DNA of 64,000 nucleotides, from NCBI GenBank assembly GCA_012343875.1, contig GCA_012343875.1_3924.1; one strand, 5' to 3'. This document shows positions 2,536 through 8,086 of the stretch, piece after piece; within the stretch, counting starts at the first letter, position 1, and the number at the start of each line of letters is the position of its first letter. The stretch is from a phage. The position numbers and the translations under genes are program-made. Under the pieces are notes generated by a model. It saw only the letters and a program-made list of their open reading frames with translations, did no database searches and had not been told where the DNA came from.

Positions 2536-2550
2536 TGTCTATAAAAACCT

Positions 2551-2729
2551 ACCTGCACAATTCTAAAATGATTTTTCTTGCCCGACCTGAGCGGGGTCTG
2601 CACGTTTTGAAAATGAAAAAGCTCTTTGGAGATTACCTGCACAGTTTGAAAATGAATTTTCTCTTTGGAGTTCAAAATTTTCTCTACAGATTTCTCTATA
2701 GAAATATACCTGCACAATCCTGAAATGAA
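2551..2729 (+). repeat. four dispersed direct repeats of a 22-bp motif ACCTGCACA.TT.TGAAAATGA
   Basis: Copies begin at 2551, 2596, 2635 and 2708, with irregular spacing, in a 520-bp non-coding gap. Confidence 0.6.
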
Positions 2730-2801
2730 AAAGCCCTCCTTACCTGAAAAATTTACCAGATAAGAAAGGCTCAGTCTATTATGAATATTCTACAGAGTTT
2801 C

Positions 2802-3587
2802 TTAGTTCTTTGCGTCTAAGAAGGTAACTTCTGGTGAAGAGAAGATTGCCTCGATATCCTCATCAGTTCTTGCATAGATATAAGCTTCTGCATCACTACC
2901 AAATGTTACAGCAATTCTGTGATTGCTCTTCGACAGGTGGGTAACTAGAGCGTTACTTAGAGACATCTTTTCAACCGGAGGGTTACTTTGATGTATCTTA
3001 CCTTTTCTTCGTCTGAAGAGGGTAACTGCATTATCCGTGAACACTGCTACACCTGCAAAGTATTCTGGCTCACAGTAGTTTTTCCAACCTGAGAGTAACT
3101 TGTGGTACATATCACCTTCATAGACATACAGATAGACATCTACACTCTTCATCACCTGATTGGTGATAACTGTGACAGCTTGAGGGTCAAGTCCACCGAT
3201 ACCTGCACCAATCATAGGTAGACCGACTTTCTTCAACTGATTCACTTCACAGTATCTGTTAAGTTGCTTCAAAGATGACTCTAAAGCACTGTATCGGGCA
3301 TCTTTACCAGTCTTAAGCTGAGTGTAAAGGTTAGCTATACGACCTTGTTTTAAGCGTGCTACAGAGAAATTACCTAGTAAATTCTCACAGGGTTTGTGAC
3401 CTATACCACCTGCATAGAGATAAACTTCTGTATCGGTCTCATATGCTTTTGGGTAAAGTTTAGAAATCTTGTCAGCGATACCTGCACCCATTAAATTCAT
3501 ACAGTTGCAACCGTGACCGATGATGTCAAACTTACCTTTATCAAATGCGGCAAAGATATCACCATTGATTATTTTTACAATACCCAT
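2802..3587 (-). CDS. macro-domain protein (TARG1/DarG-type ADP-ribose binding or hydrolase domain) with C-terminal domain of unknown function
   Basis: N-terminal GDIF..(H)GCNCMNLMGAGIA matches the TARG1/DarG-type macro signature (H-C-x5-MGAGIA) as I recall it. Confidence 0.6.
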   Translation of the reverse strand: MGIVKIINGDIFAAFDKGKFDIIGHGCNCMNLMGAGIADKISKLYPKAYETDTEVYLYAGGIGHKPCENLLGNFSVARLKQGRIANLYTQLKTGKDARYSALESSLKQLNRYCEVNQLKKVGLPMIGAGIGGLDPQAVTVITNQVMKSVDVYLYVYEGDMYHKLLSGWKNYCEPEYFAGVAVFTDNAVTLFRRRKGKIHQSNPPVEKMSLSNALVTHLSKSNHRIAVTFGSDAEAYIYARTDEDIEAIFSSPEVTFLDAKN

Positions 3588-3788
3588 TTAACATCTCTCC
3601 CAAGATTCTTTGTCTTCTGAAGGTTTTACACGTTGTCCTTCGTGGTCTACCCAGATACATCCACAACCTTCACAGATTACTGGCATTGCATAGCCAGCTT
3701 TAAAGTCATCTTCAGTGATAAGACCTTTTAAGTCACCTGTATCACGTCCAAACATTTCTATAGAGCAGTCTTTGCAGAAGTCAGCCAT
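3588..3788 (-). CDS. small Cys-rich protein (66 aa), possible zinc ribbon
   Basis: CKDC .. CEGCGC cysteine pairs. Confidence 0.4.
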   Translation of the reverse strand: MADFCKDCSIEMFGRDTGDLKGLITEDDFKAGYAMPVICEGCGCIWVDHEGQRVKPSEDKESWERC

Positions 3789-5151: not shown

Positions 5152-5180
5152 ATATTATTCTTGACTGTAATAGTTGACAA
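5152..5180 (-). promoter_or_regulatory. sigma70-like promoter abutting the hairpin (TTGTCA - 17 nt - TAATAT)
   Basis: -35 at 5175-5180 and -10 at 5152-5157 on the minus strand; -10 ends 4 nt before the hairpin. Confidence 0.4.
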
Positions 5181-5967
5181 GTGAAATAACTTGATTCATC
5201 AACAACTTATCAGCCTGTGCTCCGCGACCAGCTTGTAATGCTAGTTGGTATGCTTCTGTAACATATTTGTTAGACATACCTTCACAGTAGTCATTGTAGT
5301 CTTCCCAAAAGGAAAATGCAGCATCACCATATAGGCGTAGTGTAATTAACATTGCTGCACGAATCCCAGAAGAATACTTACGTTTTGCGTTTACTACACC
5401 TTTAAGCTGTACTTCAAGAGAATCAATTTGTTCCAGCTCATTTTTAAAGTCATTAAGGTATTTAACTGTTTCAGTGTTAGAGACCTGTTGCACACCGTAG
5501 TATGCAGCAACATACTTAATAGCAGTTGCCCAAGATGCCTTCATCAGTTCTGACTCTGGGTTGAAAGAAATCATCTTCATATTTCCGTAATAAACTTCTG
5601 AAGGTTTTTCTCTTGCTAACTCAGAGTCAAAATGAGTGTACAAATCTGTGACATCCAGTATGGAGTTCACATGGTATATAACTGCAATCAAGCTTTCTGG
5701 TCGTGTCAGGTTACCAACTTTCCACGCCTCTCGACGTGAGTGACCATCAATGATGAACAGTGAACTACCGAACTTAGCCACATGGACTACTGTTTGGTCT
5801 GGTGATACATCACCATTAAGGTGTTTGCTTTTCAGACGCTTAAGTGTATTCCGTTGACGAGGGTTTTCTTTGTAACGTTTTTCATTAAGAAAATCCTCGA
5901 CACTGATAATCTTAGTGTGAATTTTAACAACCTTGCCATTCAGTGCTACATTGATGCTGTTTGCCAT
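5155..5967 (-). CDS. ParB/Srx-fold (DGQHR-like) domain protein
   Basis: Motif IIDGHSRREAW resembles the ParB/sulfiredoxin/DndB DGQHR-type signature; lies next to Dam. Confidence 0.35.
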   Translation of the reverse strand: MANSINVALNGKVVKIHTKIISVEDFLNEKRYKENPRQRNTLKRLKSKHLNGDVSPDQTVVHVAKFGSSLFIIDGHSRREAWKVGNLTRPESLIAVIYHVNSILDVTDLYTHFDSELAREKPSEVYYGNMKMISFNPESELMKASWATAIKYVAAYYGVQQVSNTETVKYLNDFKNELEQIDSLEVQLKGVVNAKRKYSSGIRAAMLITLRLYGDAAFSFWEDYNDYCEGMSNKYVTEAYQLALQAGRGAQADKLLMNQVISLVNYYSQE

Positions 5968-5978
5968 AACTTGATACC

Positions 5979-6863
5979 TTAGTTGTGAATGATTACTTCG
6001 TTAATACCTTTGCTTCTCTGTGCATGTATTGTGTATGAATGGCTAACCTCTGTCAAGTTAAAATTTTCAGGAATTAAGCTTGTCCATCCATCCCACTGAG
6101 AGTTTGACATCAAAACTTTAGAACCTAACTCCCCCCAAGAAACCATATCTTCGCATAATTTTACAGACATCTCAATGTCAAACTTTGCACCATATTTCTG
6201 GTTGGTGTTGATATACGGGGGGTCACAGTAAATAACTGTGCCTTCTCCATGTTTTATGTCAACCATGTCATAAGGTTCACTGCTAAGTATTACCCTTTCA
6301 TCGGTGATAAAACTGTAGAACTCTGATAGTGATTCTTTAGTTTTTGTGAAGAAAACCTCTTCTTCCAGCAAATACCCACAAGGTGTTGCATAGTGGCCTT
6401 TCATCTCTTTAGTAGTCTGCCATACACCACCAAAACTTAATTTTTGAAGGAAAAACTGTCTGGCATAGTATCTGTAGTCATATGCTCCTTCTTCACCAAG
6501 CAAAAGAAGTTCTTCTCTTATACTGTAATACATTTTATAGCGTAGGCGGTTATGACGCTGACCTTTCACGGCATACTCTTCCTGCATAGGTAAGGCTAAG
6601 TACCTCTTTGACAAGTACTCAAATTCTTCCATAAAGTTTTCATAGTCATCTCTGAAAGTTGTGTAAAGACCTATAATATGTTTATTTATCTCATTAATAA
6701 ACACTTTTGCCTCTGGGTATCTGTTATAAGCCCAGATAGCTACTGAACCACCACCTGAAAACAGGTCATAGAAGTTTTTACAGTTGTCTGGGAAGACACC
6801 TAAACGCTCATACTCTTTTAATATTCTTGTTTTACCACCAAGATATTTGAACATCGGCTTCAT
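5979..6863 (-). CDS. dam: DNA adenine (N6) methyltransferase, Dam-like
   Basis: FSGGGS (SAM-binding motif I) and YCDPPY (DPPY catalytic motif). Confidence 0.8.
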   Translation of the reverse strand: MKPMFKYLGGKTRILKEYERLGVFPDNCKNFYDLFSGGGSVAIWAYNRYPEAKVFINEINKHIIGLYTTFRDDYENFMEEFEYLSKRYLALPMQEEYAVKGQRHNRLRYKMYYSIREELLLLGEEGAYDYRYYARQFFLQKLSFGGVWQTTKEMKGHYATPCGYLLEEEVFFTKTKESLSEFYSFITDERVILSSEPYDMVDIKHGEGTVIYCDPPYINTNQKYGAKFDIEMSVKLCEDMVSWGELGSKVLMSNSQWDGWTSLIPENFNLTEVSHSYTIHAQRSKGINEVIIHN

Positions 6864-6879
6864 TAATACTCCTTGAAAT

Positions 6880-6902
6880 TTAAAAAGGCTCCCGAAGGAG
6901 CC
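6880..6902 (-). terminator. intrinsic terminator-like hairpin GGCTCC-UUCG-GGAGCC + U-tract
   Basis: Minus strand: GGCTCCTTCGGGAGCC TTTTTAAATTT, 15 nt upstream of the Dam start codon. Confidence 0.55.
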
Positions 6903-6905
6903 TGT

Positions 6906-6934
6906 ATCTTAACCTTAACCGAGGACTTTTGCAA
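6906..6934 (-). promoter_or_regulatory. sigma70-like promoter abutting the hairpin (TTGCAA - 17 nt - TAAGAT)
   Basis: -35 at 6929-6934, -10 at 6906-6911 on the minus strand. Confidence 0.35.
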
Positions 6935-7394
6935 GGATATTTGCAGCCATCGAAGAAGCTTTTGCAGCAGCAACTACGCCAGCTTTGACAGTGCTATCCT
7001 TAATAGCAGATACCGTTGCAGCATCAGTAAAGAGATAAGTGATTGTTTTAGAACCACTTGTAAAGGAAAGCATAAGAGTAGTTTCCAGATTGAAAGAGCG
7101 ATACGGAGCACCTTCTTTAACGATACCTTCGGCACCTAACTCTGAAGCCTTACCCATATCATAGATAGTCATCAGGTTTTCTTTGTGTGCAGTCGTTGAA
7201 CCAGCACCTTTTACGTGCTTTTTAACATTCAACAATGCACGGTATTCACGAATACTGCCATCAGCTTTTACATTAACAGCACGAAAAATTTTACCTTCAA
7301 AGTTACCTTGAATCATTTTACGAACTACTTCAGATTTGTTTGCCGTATCGTCCAGTGCTACCGTAATGATATTGTTCATAAGTTTTTCTCTCAA
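6915..7394 (-). CDS. hypothetical protein (159 aa)
   Basis: Co-directional ORF, Ala/Lys-rich C-terminus. Confidence 0.4.
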   Translation of the reverse strand: MREKLMNNIITVALDDTANKSEVVRKMIQGNFEGKIFRAVNVKADGSIREYRALLNVKKHVKGAGSTTAHKENLMTIYDMGKASELGAEGIVKEGAPYRSFNLETTLMLSFTSGSKTITYLFTDAATVSAIKDSTVKAGVVAAAKASSMAANILAKVLG

Positions 7395-8086
7395 TGTTTA
7401 ACTAGCATGGTTTTAATGTGTGGAAGGATTCTGTTTACCTTCTGAACGTTCTTCTCTGTATCTTCTATAAAGCATACTATATTAAAGTAAGGCAGAATGC
7501 AAGACTGAATCATCCTCACTTTCAAACTTTCTGCACTTAGAGAGTTAGTTCCAAAACCACGCATAAAAAGTATGTAATCATGCTCTATATTGTGCCTCAA
7601 GAACATCTCAGTAGGTATTCTCTGAGTTTCACCTCTTGCTGTCAAGAGTCCGATGGCAGCATGATTAGCAATTGCATCAATAATACTAAAAACATACGTT
7701 GGTTTTGCTCTTACAGAGTCAAGGAGATTAGTATACTGTGAGAATGACCCATCAGTCAATTCCGTTGAGCAATCTTCGTGATTAAAATTTGTAAGAACAC
7801 CATCAATATCTGCTAAGATGAGGTTACCTTTTTCTACAAGGTCTTTATTGACTATGACTAAACTGTCACGTCTTACACCTATAGACTTCCCAGTCTCTTT
7901 GTCCACAACGTTCACAATTGGTTCTGATGTGTGAAACTCTTCAAGTGAACATACAACTTCTCTTGCAGTGTCTTCAAAATCCCTGCACTGTTCTGGAGTC
8001 CATACACAGGAATCAAGACCTAACTCATGAGGGTGCAAGTCGTAAGCGTGGCACAGGACTTCATCAGACTTTCTTAATTTTTTCAT
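7391..8086 (-). CDS. HAD-superfamily hydrolase-like protein (possible nucleotidase/phosphatase)
   Basis: ILADIDGVLTN resembles HAD motif I (DxDGV); IGLLTARGE and IEDTEKN fit downstream HAD motifs. Confidence 0.4.
   Translation of the reverse strand: MKKLRKSDEVLCHAYDLHPHELGLDSCVWTPEQCRDFEDTAREVVCSLEEFHTSEPIVNVVDKETGKSIGVRRDSLVIVNKDLVEKGNLILADIDGVLTNFNHEDCSTELTDGSFSQYTNLLDSVRAKPTYVFSIIDAIANHAAIGLLTARGETQRIPTEMFLRHNIEHDYILFMRGFGTNSLSAESLKVRMIQSCILPYFNIVCFIEDTEKNVQKVNRILPHIKTMLVKH

What the first reader, a model, noticed from the sequence alone, without database searches (positions are those of the whole stretch)
2802..3587. TARG1/DarG-type macro-domain protein in the early block
The N-terminal half carries GDIF .. 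HGCNCMNLMGAGIA, which matches the TARG1/DarG branch of macro domains (ADP-ribose binding/hydrolysis). In a phage that also carries the NAD+ module, this protein could reverse ADP-ribosylation imposed by a host toxin (for example DarT-type DNA ADP-ribosylation) or process ADP-ribose-derived molecules. The C-terminal 110 aa have no recognisable motif.
Basis: partly seen in the sequence, partly recalled or inferred. Interest (0 to 1): 0.6.

Follow-up and report, generated by a model that had tools for sequence, protein, structure and literature searches.

The report
Phage macrodomain with orphan C-terminal domain
This early gene of a Felix O1-like phage encodes an ADP-ribose-removing macrodomain related to phage T4's anti-DarT factor, fused to a small domain with no known relatives; it most likely strips a host defence toxin's ADP-ribose marks off phage DNA, which makes it a variant of a recently recognised counter-defence rather than something wholly new.

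Summary
A 261-aa ORF lies on the minus strand at 2802-3587. It carries GDIF and HGCNCMNLMGAGIA, passes the Pfam Macro threshold, and models confidently as a macro fold whose nearest solved structures are TARG1 and DarG. The window is a Felixounavirus.

The macro half (residues 1-156) is 41% identical to T4 Tk.4. A 2025 preprint named Tk.4 AdfM because knocking it out sensitises T4 to DarTG2.

It is not a strict TARG1/DarG-type enzyme. The catalytic lysine (TARG1 K84, DarG K80) is an invariant glutamine here (Q90), and TARG1 D125 is glycine. The same H-x-C-N and N-x-x-x-Q active site occurs in SCO6735, a macrodomain shown to cleave thymidine-linked ADP-ribose from DNA using that Gln and Asn.

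The C-terminal 105 aa form a confidently predicted, selected domain. It has no relative in Pfam, PDB, BFVD or 1.84 billion representative proteins, except in the same fusion in Felix-like phages.

The gene occurs as two roughly 42%-identical alleles in otherwise near-identical genomes.

Best reading: an early counter-defence hydrolase for DarT2-type DNA ADP-ribosylation. No substrate has been tested for this protein.

The parts
2802..3587 (-). Complete CDS, 261 aa plus stop codon (2802-2804): a two-domain macro fusion protein
   Evidence: ORF list; PHROG 335 E=5.5e-111 over the full length; orthologous to wV8 gp012 and FGS030 gp14, both annotated 'phosphatase'
3120..3587 (-). N-terminal macrodomain, residues 1-156 (Tk.4/AdfM-like, ALC1-like class)
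   Evidence: Pfam Macro; AF2 plus Foldseek to TARG1, DarG and Poa1p; 41% identity to T4 Tk.4, E=7e-24
3504..3515 (-). H25-G26-C27-N28 loop. N28 is equivalent to SCO6735 N27 and PhiKZ AdfM N23, which contact the distal ribose
   Evidence: H25, G26 and N28 are invariant across the family (C27 at least 90%); column alignment; mutagenesis of the equivalent Asn in SCO6735 and PhiKZ gp104
3474..3488 (-). G34-A35-G36-I37-A38, phosphate-binding loop 1
   Evidence: G36 and A38 are invariant across the Tk.4-like family, with G34 at least 90%; G34 and G36 are invariant across all ten aligned ALC1-like proteins
3318..3332 (-). N86-L87-Y88-T89-Q90 signature. Q90 occupies the position of TARG1 K84, DarG K80 and SCO6735 Q85
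   Evidence: Profile alignment to TARG1; MAFFT with SCO6735, Bt_1257, TARG1, DarG and PhiKZ; SCO6735 Q85A is inactive
3186..3218 (-). P124-M-I-G127-A-G129-I-G-G-L-D134, phosphate/ribose-binding loop 2. G131 sits at the TARG1 D125 position
2805..3119 (-). C-terminal orphan domain, residues 157-261 (helix, 6-7 beta strands, helix)
3595..3601 (-). Shine-Dalgarno GGGAGAG, 7 nt before the ATG and inside the 3' end of the upstream ORF. That ORF's stop TAA abuts the start (TAAATG)
   Evidence: Sequence read
2731..2772 (-). Intrinsic-terminator-like hairpin (17-bp stem, T-run) 30 nt after the stop codon; closes the transcription unit
   Evidence: The wV8 record annotates a rho-independent terminator at the equivalent place, after gp012

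Best explanation
An early-expressed phage counter-defence enzyme. The N-terminal macrodomain binds the ADP-ribose moiety. D10 would contact the adenine, the two glycine-rich loops the diphosphate, and N28 and Q90 the distal ribose. It would hydrolyse the ribose-base bond of ADP-ribosyl-thymidine that host DarT2-type toxins place on single-stranded phage DNA, so that replication can resume. Catalysis would follow the Gln-type, water-mediated mechanism described for SCO6735, not the lysine mechanism of TARG1 and DarG. The C-terminal 105-aa domain, packed against the macro core, is an accessory module specific to Felix O1-like phages; its role is unknown. Shown here: the ORF, the macro fold, intact ADP-ribose-binding motifs, family-level homology to T4 Tk.4/AdfM, the Gln/Asn active-site match to SCO6735, the location in the early block, and purifying selection on both domains. 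Inferred: catalytic activity, thymidine-ADPr DNA as the physiological substrate, DarT2 as the opponent, and any role for the C-domain.
For: Macro fold and family. Homology to T4 Tk.4: 41% identity over 135 aa, E=7e-24, with shared IVKxIxGDI, HGCNC, MGxGxA, NLYTQ and PxIGAGIG motifs. T4 tk.4 was the single HIDEN-SEQ hit on a DarTG2 host, and a clean knockout sensitises T4 to DarTG2 (bioRxiv 10.1101/2025.11.20.689424). Before that, T2 and T4 were noted as DarTG2-resistant for unknown reasons (PMC11825919). In MAFFT, Q90 and N28 align with SCO6735 Q85 and N27. SCO6735 cleaves DarT-made T-ADPr on ssDNA faster than DarG or TARG1 and rescues E. coli from DarT; Q85A is inactive and N27S nearly so (PMC9411070). 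DarG is the only PADLOC or NCBIfam model hit, and ours scores higher (43 bits) than T4 Tk.4 (30-36 bits). No ART or NADAR is annotated in the reference Felixounavirus genome, so a host-imposed modification is the likelier target. T5, which is DarTG2-sensitive, has no Tk.4-type macrodomain. The two-allele cassette swap fits a locus under arms-race pressure.
Against: There is no biochemical or genetic test on this protein or on any Felixounavirus. PhageMaP on Bas63 mentions neither macro nor DarT, and no paper pairs 'macro domain' with 'Felixounavirus'. The T4 Tk.4 evidence is genetic only and comes from a preprint; its mechanism is inferred there too. Identity to Tk.4 is 41%, and macrodomain substrate range is notoriously hard to read from sequence (PMC9503650). 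The protein lacks the elongated, lysine-bearing 'mobile loop' said to characterise the SCO6735 subclass and implicated in its DNA activity. TARG1-like enzymes also act on Glu/Asp-linked protein ADPr and on uracil-ADPr RNA. The extra C-domain could redirect specificity.
Confidence: 0.55

Rival explanations
1. A de-ADP-ribosylase for other macromolecular targets. It would remove ADP-ribose from proteins (Glu/Asp-linked) or from RNA (uracil-linked or mRNA ADP-ribosylation) modified by other host ART toxins or defence systems such as CmdTAC-type mRNA ARTs.
For: TARG1 and SCO6735 also hydrolyse Glu/Asp-linked protein ADPr. TARG1, DarG and SCO6735 all reverse uracil-ADPr on RNA (PMC13036486). An mRNA-ADP-ribosylating defence against T-even phages exists (PMC11618068 abstract). 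The active-site residues are the same ones used for these substrates.
Against: The only phenotype reported for a family member (T4 Tk.4) is against DarTG2, as the single hit of that screen. SCO6735 prefers DNA over protein in competition. No family member has been linked to CmdTAC or to protein ARTs.
Confidence: 0.2
2. A small-molecule ADP-ribose-derivative enzyme, as the legacy annotations imply: ADP-ribose-1''-phosphate phosphatase (Poa1p-like) or O-acetyl-ADP-ribose deacetylase. Alternatively, a degrader of ADPR-based immune signals (Thoeris gcADPR/His-ADPR). Either way it would work alongside the phage NadV/Prs NAD+ salvage module.
For: The H-x-C-N motif matches Poa1p, with PDB 6lfq-type hits at residues 17-56. 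The profile scores E=5e-17 to Poa1p. GenBank annotations read 'phosphatase' or 'O-acetyl-ADP-ribose deacetylase'. The NAD+ module lies 9-12 kb away on the same strand. Aravind's survey argues that many viral macrodomains may prefer soluble ADPr derivatives.
Against: Those annotations are transferred by homology and were never tested. The phage has no evident source of ADPr-1''-phosphate; no Tpt1/KptA is annotated. The macro gene is not part of the nadV-prs cluster and is separated from it by rIIA/rIIB and several other genes. Closest structural neighbours are TARG1 and DarG rather than Poa1p, though only by a narrow margin.
Confidence: 0.12
3. Mainly a non-catalytic inhibitor or sponge. The protein would neutralise a host toxin or signal by binding, through the macro cleft and/or the orphan C-domain, with hydrolysis dispensable.
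For: Catalytically dead SCO6735 Q85A, DarG K80A and TARG1 K84A still inhibit DarT by interaction. DarG has a separate DarT-binding C-terminal domain. The C-domain evolves 2-3 times faster than the macro core, with variable charge, as binding interfaces in arms races often do.
Against: All residues needed for Gln-type catalysis are invariant over deep divergence, which binding alone would not require. The C-domain shows no sequence or fold similarity to the DarG C-terminal half.
Confidence: 0.08

Closest known systems
T4 Tk.4 = AdfM (anti-DarT factor Macrodomain; bioRxiv 10.1101/2025.11.20.689424); PHROG 335
   Same: Same macro subfamily: 41% identity, with identical signature motifs HGCNC, MGxGxA, NLYTQ and PxIGAGIG. 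Early or accessory phage gene. Widespread in large myoviruses, with about 2,770 phage records matching.
   Different: Tk.4 is a single 155-aa domain, whereas ours carries an extra 105-aa orphan domain. Tk.4 has a genetic anti-DarTG2 phenotype; ours is untested.
SCO6735 (S. coelicolor) and Bt_1257: Gln-type ALC1-like macrodomains (PDB 5E3B, 2FG1; PMC9411070)
   Same: Gln at the catalytic-lysine position (Q90 vs Q85), Asn in the H-x-C-N loop (N28 vs N27), and no TARG1 Asp125 equivalent. These are the best PDB sequence-profile hits.
   Different: Only 23-24% identity. Ours has the short loop after the Gln, as in TARG1 and DarG, not the 5-6-residue-longer lysine-bearing mobile loop described as characteristic of the SCO6735 subclass. 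Those are bacterial single-domain proteins.
DarG antitoxin macrodomain and PhiKZ gp104 'AdfM' (PMC13309987)
   Same: Same fold and class, among the nearest solved structures. DarG is the only defence-system HMM hit. The conserved Asn is functionally important in PhiKZ gp104 (N23A). Same proposed job: erasing DarT2's thymidine ADP-ribosylation.
   Different: DarG and PhiKZ gp104 keep the FPTK lysine, while ours has Gln. PhiKZ gp104 scores 133-138 bits on DarG models against 43 for ours. Our C-domain is unrelated to DarG's DarT-binding C-terminal domain.
Human TARG1/OARD1 (PDB 4J5R/4J5S)
   Same: Best structural match (Foldseek E=2.4e-9, TM 0.82).
   Different: The K84/D125 catalytic dyad is replaced by Q90/G131, and loop 1 is HGCN rather than HCIS.
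Yeast Poa1p, ADP-ribose-1''-phosphate phosphatase (PDB 6LFQ)
   Same: H-x-C-N-C motif and overall fold; this is the source of the 'phosphatase' annotation.
   Different: No evidence of the substrate in phage infection, and Poa1p has Ser rather than Gln after the beta-strand (from my recollection of its sequence, not tested here).

Membership tests
Macro domain superfamily (Pfam PF01661) | Profile match above the curated gathering score | tested here: met
   32 bits against a cutoff of 22, E=1.3e-7, residues 25-140
Macro domain superfamily (Pfam PF01661) | Three-layer alpha/beta/alpha macro fold | tested here: met
   AF2 pLDDT 85.9. Foldseek probability 1.0 with TM 0.7-0.83 to many solved macrodomains; 233 PDB chains at E<=1e-3
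Macro domain superfamily (Pfam PF01661) | ADP-ribose-binding determinants: Asp after beta1 for adenine, and two Gly-rich diphosphate loops | tested here: met
   G9-D10, G34-A-G36 and G127-A-G129-I-G-G are present and conserved. Actual binding is not testable here.
TARG1/DarG-type (lysine-type) ADP-ribosyl hydrolases | Catalytic lysine at the end of the central strand (TARG1 K84, DarG K80) | tested here: not met
   Invariant Gln90 at that column in ours, in T4 Tk.4 and in all fusion homologues
TARG1/DarG-type (lysine-type) ADP-ribosyl hydrolases | TARG1 Asp125 partner of the dyad | tested here: not met
   Gly131 aligns with D125
TARG1/DarG-type (lysine-type) ADP-ribosyl hydrolases | Nearest structural neighbours within the ALC1-like class | tested here: met
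   TARG1 ranks 1-3 and Taq DarG ranks 4-5 in Foldseek against PDB, but the margin over Poa1p and viral macrodomains is small
DarG antitoxin (NCBIfam NF048014 equivalog; PADLOC PDLC02990) | Score above the equivalog cutoff | tested here: not met
   43.1 bits against a cutoff of 250; PhiKZ gp104 scores 137.8 bits
DarG antitoxin (NCBIfam NF048014 equivalog; PADLOC PDLC02990) | C-terminal DarT-binding domain | tested here: not met
Gln-type ALC1-like macrodomains (SCO6735/Bt_1257 subclass) | Gln at the catalytic-lysine position, locked by the Asn of H-x-C-N | tested here: met
   Q90 and N28 align with Q85 and N27; those residues are essential in SCO6735
Gln-type ALC1-like macrodomains (SCO6735/Bt_1257 subclass) | Mobile loop 5 aa longer than in DarG and TARG1, described as characteristic of the subclass | tested here: not met
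   Ours and T4 Tk.4 have the short loop; SCO6735 and Bt_1257 carry a 5-6-residue insertion
Gln-type ALC1-like macrodomains (SCO6735/Bt_1257 subclass) | Hydrolysis of thymidine-linked ADP-ribose on ssDNA | not testable with these tools
   Requires a biochemical assay
Phage Tk.4/AdfM-like macrodomains (PHROG 335) | Sequence membership with the family signature motifs | tested here: met
   PHROG 335 E=5.5e-111. BLASTP to T4 Tk.4 gives 41% identity, E=7e-24. 18 invariant columns are shared
Phage Tk.4/AdfM-like macrodomains (PHROG 335) | Stand-alone single-domain architecture of about 150-185 aa | tested here: not met
   Ours is 261 aa, with an added 105-aa domain found only in Ounavirinae-like phages
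Phage Tk.4/AdfM-like macrodomains (PHROG 335) | Protects the phage from DarTG2 | not testable with these tools
   Shown genetically for T4 only. An indirect consistency check: DarTG2-sensitive T5 lacks the family
Poa1p-type ADP-ribose-1''-phosphate phosphatases | H-x-C-N motif containing the His that was mutated (H23A) in the deposited Poa1p structures | tested here: met
   H25-G-C-N28; phmmer matches residues 17-56 to Poa1p residues 18-57. The motif is shared with SCO6735, so it does not discriminate between the two.
Poa1p-type ADP-ribose-1''-phosphate phosphatases | Phosphatase activity on ADPr-1''-phosphate | not testable with these tools
   Annotation-only evidence in the GenBank records

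The most novel reading that the evidence does not exclude
The orphan C-terminal domain is a second, non-enzymatic neutralisation module that binds host DarT2 or another ART toxin. That would make this protein a convergent, phage-built analogue of full-length DarG: a macro eraser plus an unrelated toxin-binding domain. Its fast evolution and the two-allele cassette swap would reflect matching to different toxin variants. The fold itself would then be new.
Probability: 0.15. Interest if true: 0.65.

Novelty: new variant of a known kind. Interest (0 to 1): 0.4.

Why it matters
If correct, the recently discovered AdfM-type defence against DarTG2 extends from T-even phages to the Felix O1 group. 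These phages are widely used for Salmonella and E. coli typing, biocontrol and therapy, so the gene could bear on host range on DarTG2-carrying strains.

It also points to a distinction the literature has blurred. The two published 'AdfM' proteins use different active sites: PhiKZ gp104 is lysine-type, like DarG, while T4 Tk.4 is glutamine-type, like SCO6735. The large Tk.4-like phage family (about 5% of sequenced phage genomes) would therefore be expected to use the unusual water-mediated Gln mechanism, which can be tested with two point mutants.

The orphan C-domain, confined to one phage subfamily and under selection, is a compact and tractable candidate for a new accessory function on an ADP-ribose eraser.

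Tried and rejected
1. Conserved partner gene. The ORF abutting the macro start is 100% identical in L008 and is Cys-rich in two lineages. However, it belongs to different PHROGs (2210 vs 4446), and the third lineage has an unrelated 103-aa ORF. Rejected.

2. C-domain homologues elsewhere. The word-index search with the C-domain alone returned nothing, not even its own family, so it was uninformative. The exhaustive profile search gave 10 hits. The four long ones are repeat proteins (PQQ beta-propeller, retroelement concatenate, sortilin-like) and were judged spurious. The 114-aa and 54-aa hits are truncated gene calls of the same fusion.

4. C-domain as a generic nucleic-acid-binding domain. 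Net charge is not conserved (pI 4.6-9.5), so this is unsupported.

5. A duplicate of the C-domain elsewhere in the window. None was found.

6. A phage-encoded ART partner, which would make the macro a self-regulator. No ART or NADAR is annotated in reference wV8. This rests on annotation only; I did not scan every ORF.

7. The afdb50 fold library was unavailable.

8. LeRoux 2022 (PMC9250638) is not held, so the original phage panel for DarTG2 could not be checked.

9. hhalign of the family profile against PhiKZ gp104 confirmed homology (96.7% probability). It misaligned the NLYTQ/FPTK strand, so I used the MAFFT and TARG1 profile alignments for that column.

Full report
**1. The observation**

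The coordinates 2802-3587 delimit a real ORF, but it is on the minus strand; the plus-strand translation is full of stops. It encodes 261 aa, beginning MGIVKIINGDIFAAFDKGKFDIIGHGCNCMNLMGAGIADKI.

The macro assignment is statistically solid:
- Pfam Macro scores 32 bits against a gathering score of 22.
- PHROG 335 ('phosphatase') scores E=5.5e-111 over the whole length.
- A single-sequence search of PDB finds TARG1, coronavirus Mac1, DarG and Poa1p.
- An AlphaFold2 model built from 18 homologues has pLDDT 85.9 and pTM 0.85.
- Its best Foldseek matches in PDB are TARG1 (E=2.4e-9, target TM 0.82), T. aquaticus DarG, alphavirus macrodomains, Poa1p and M. tuberculosis DarG, all at probability 1.0.

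**2. Where it sits**

The window is a Felixounavirus (Felix O1-like myovirus), about 92-96% identical in nucleotide sequence to many E. coli, Salmonella and Shigella phages.

The gene is orthologous to wV8 gp012. It is the last gene of a leftward early unit that follows rIIA, rIIB, a HAD/PNKP-like gene and several small ORFs.
- Its ATG directly abuts the stop codon of a 66-aa Cys-rich ORF (TAAATG), and a GGGAGAG Shine-Dalgarno lies 7 nt upstream.
- A 17-bp hairpin with a T-run follows 30 nt after the stop. The wV8 record annotates a terminator at the same place.
They lie on the same strand, on the far side of rIIA.
- The reference genome annotates no ADP-ribosyltransferase and no NADAR.

**3. 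What the macro half is related to**

tblastn against 50,697 phage records finds 257 full-length matches, all Felix-like phages. Another roughly 2,500 records match only residues ~3-160 at 28-45% identity. In T4-like phages those matches fall on tk.4, next to vs.

Direct BLASTP to T4 Tk.4 gives 41% identity over 135 aa, E=7e-24. A 14-member alignment shows 18 invariant positions: G9, H25, G26, N28, C29, M33, G36, A38, P46, L71, G72, N86, L87, T89, Q90, P124, G127 and G129.

This matters because of a November 2025 preprint (HIDEN-SEQ). In a transposon screen on a DarTG2 host, tk.4 was the single T4 gene depleted, and a clean knockout sensitised T4 to DarTG2. The authors named it AdfM; removal of ADP-ribose from DNA was inferred, not shown. 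An earlier paper had noted that T2 and T4 resist DarTG2 for unknown reasons, whereas T5 is sensitive.

As a small consistency check, I searched the whole T5 genome in six frames with the family profile. There was no hit at E<=10, while the positive controls T4 and wV8 scored 1e-60 and 2e-56.

**4. Is it a 'TARG1/DarG-type' enzyme?**

At the level of fold and class, yes. At the level of the catalytic residue, no.
- In the profile alignment to TARG1, the family's invariant NLYTQ aligns with YLITK, so Q90 takes the place of catalytic K84. G131 takes the place of D125.
- A second, independent 'AdfM' is PhiKZ gp104. It was shown biochemically to remove DarT2's ADP-ribose from ssDNA, and N23A reduced that activity. 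It is a true DarG-type protein: E=9e-25 to Mtb DarG, with the FPTK lysine motif.
- On DarG HMMs, PhiKZ gp104 scores 133-138 bits, ours 43 and T4 Tk.4 30-36. The NCBIfam equivalog cutoff is 250. Only the macro half of the DarG model is matched.

The two proteins published under the name AdfM therefore belong to different active-site types.

**5. A mechanistic precedent for the glutamine**

The best PDB profile hits are Bt_1257 (2e-18) and, close behind, SCO6735 (1.6e-16).

SCO6735 is an ALC1-like macrodomain that lacks the TARG1 and DarG catalytic residues and has Gln85 at the lysine position. Even so, it cleaves DarT-made thymidine-ADPr on ssDNA faster than DarG or TARG1, rescues E. coli from DarT, and is inactive on guanosine-ADPr. 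Q85A and Q85E are inactive, and N27S is nearly so. The proposed mechanism is water-mediated, with Gln85 positioning the distal ribose (PMC9411070).

A MAFFT alignment of ours, T4 Tk.4, two diverged fusion homologues, SCO6735, Bt_1257, TARG1, both DarGs and PhiKZ gp104 shows the following:
- At the catalytic column, the first six carry Q and the last four carry K.
- The loop-1 motif is H-x-C-N in the Gln group, HCIS in TARG1, and (N/I)-T-V-N in the DarG group.
- One feature does not match. SCO6735 and Bt_1257 have a 5-6-residue-longer 'mobile loop', described as characteristic of their subclass. Ours and Tk.4 have the short loop of TARG1 and DarG.

I therefore treat the Tk.4-like phage family as its own subgroup of the ALC1-like class. 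It shares the Gln-type active site but is not a member of the SCO6735 subclass proper.

**6. The C-terminal domain**

Residues 157-261 are predicted as a helix, six or seven strands and a final helix. The pLDDT is 78.7 for the domain modelled alone and about 85-90 within the full-length model; the full-length pTM of 0.85 suggests the domain is packed on the macro core.

Searches for relatives were negative:
- No Pfam match.
- No PHROG other than its own.
- In BFVD, only its own family.
- An exhaustive HMMER profile search of 1.84 billion representative proteins found ten hits. The credible ones are all the same macro fusion or truncated calls of it.

Diverged fusions, at 32-45% overall identity, all lie in the same rIIA-rIIB-...-macro synteny in Felix-like (Ounavirinae-type) contigs.

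The domain diverges two to three times faster than the macro core. For pairs whose macro halves are 40-52% identical, the C-domains are 14-20% identical. Its pI ranges from 4.6 to 9.5, and only P174, G179 and Y236 are essentially invariant.

It is nevertheless under purifying selection: dN/dS is 0.08-0.27, against 0.05-0.11 for the macro half, among three close relatives. It is a real, functional domain of unknown role.

**7. Allelic replacement**

Contig L008 is 93-95% identical to the window on both sides. From about 3445 to 2616, the gene body and its terminator are replaced by a version whose protein is about 41% identical.

In GenBank phages this 'type B' allele occurs at 95% identity or more in 13 Felixounavirus records, with nothing between 42% and 95%. 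Type A, which is ours, occurs at 90% or more in about 200 records.

Such cassette swaps are typical of accessory counter-defence loci. I regard this as suggestive rather than diagnostic.

**8. Verdict**

Best explanation (confidence 0.55): an early counter-defence ADP-ribosyl hydrolase of the Tk.4/AdfM family. It would erase DarT2-type thymidine ADP-ribosylation from phage ssDNA by a Gln-type mechanism, and it carries a lineage-specific accessory domain.

Rivals:
- Other macromolecular substrates, namely protein Glu/Asp-ADPr or RNA U-ADPr, which TARG1-like enzymes also reverse: 0.2.
- Small-molecule ADPr derivatives or immune signals, as the legacy 'phosphatase' and 'deacetylase' annotations imply: 0.12.
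- Mainly stoichiometric inhibition: 0.08.

No function has been tested for any Felix-like orthologue. PhageMaP on Bas63 does not mention the gene, and no paper in the library pairs 'macro domain' with 'Felixounavirus'.

The finding is a new variant of a known kind: a known phage macro family, a newly inferred role by homology, and an undescribed fusion partner. Interest is moderate at 0.4. A specialist would not be surprised by a macrodomain in a large myovirus. The Gln-versus-Lys split among 'AdfM' proteins and the orphan domain are concrete and testable.

Noticed in passing
window 5155-6863 (minus strand): A Dam-type D12 N6-adenine methyltransferase (5979-6863; Pfam 2e-23) and an adjacent 270-aa ORF (5155-5967; phrog_2615, no Pfam, contains DGHSRREAW) form a cassette. 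It is present here and in FGS030 but absent from the near-identical contig L008 and from wV8. It looks like an accessory indel, possibly anti-restriction.
   Followed up: partly
window 3588-3788 (minus strand): A 66-aa Cys-rich ORF (CxxC...CxxCxC; phrog_2210, no Pfam) whose stop codon abuts the macro ATG, suggesting translational coupling. In a diverged relative (L006) the abutting ORF is also a CxxC...CxxC zinc-ribbon-like protein, but of a different PHROG (4446). No conserved partner could be established.
   Followed up: yes
window 2538-2743: Four to five copies of a direct repeat of about 20-34 nt (core CCTGCACAnTTTnAAAATGA) lie in the 520-bp non-coding gap after the macro terminator. The wV8 record annotates families of direct repeats (DR_1 to DR_9) between early genes. 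These are probably repeated phage promoter or regulatory elements.
   Followed up: partly
window ~2616-3445 compared with L008 8143-8934: The macro-fusion gene exists as two alleles, about 42% identical in protein, in otherwise 93-95% identical Felixounavirus genomes. Type B occurs in 13 GenBank phages (BPS17L1, Si3 and finno, for example). The swap boundaries lie just inside the 5' end of the gene and after its terminator.
   Followed up: yes
literature, T4 Tk.4 (L003:3923-4390) compared with PhiKZ gp104: Two independent 2025-2026 reports both use the name AdfM, for proteins with different active sites. PhiKZ gp104 is DarG-like with the FPTK lysine, while T4 Tk.4 has NLYTQ with Gln, as in SCO6735. 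On DarG HMMs they score 133-138 bits and 30-36 bits respectively.
   Followed up: yes
L011 7588-8094 (phage T5 T5.105) and 6447-7265 (T5.102): T5 carries two genes annotated Sir2 but no Tk.4-type macrodomain anywhere in its genome (profile search, no hit at E<=10). T5 is the standard DarTG2-sensitive phage.
   Followed up: partly
window 7391-8086 (minus strand): The 231-aa ORF annotated 'polynucleotide kinase' in relatives gave no Pfam hit here at E<=0.1. Orthologues in diverged contigs carry only weak or faint HAD_PNKP hits, so the annotation looks soft.
   Followed up: no
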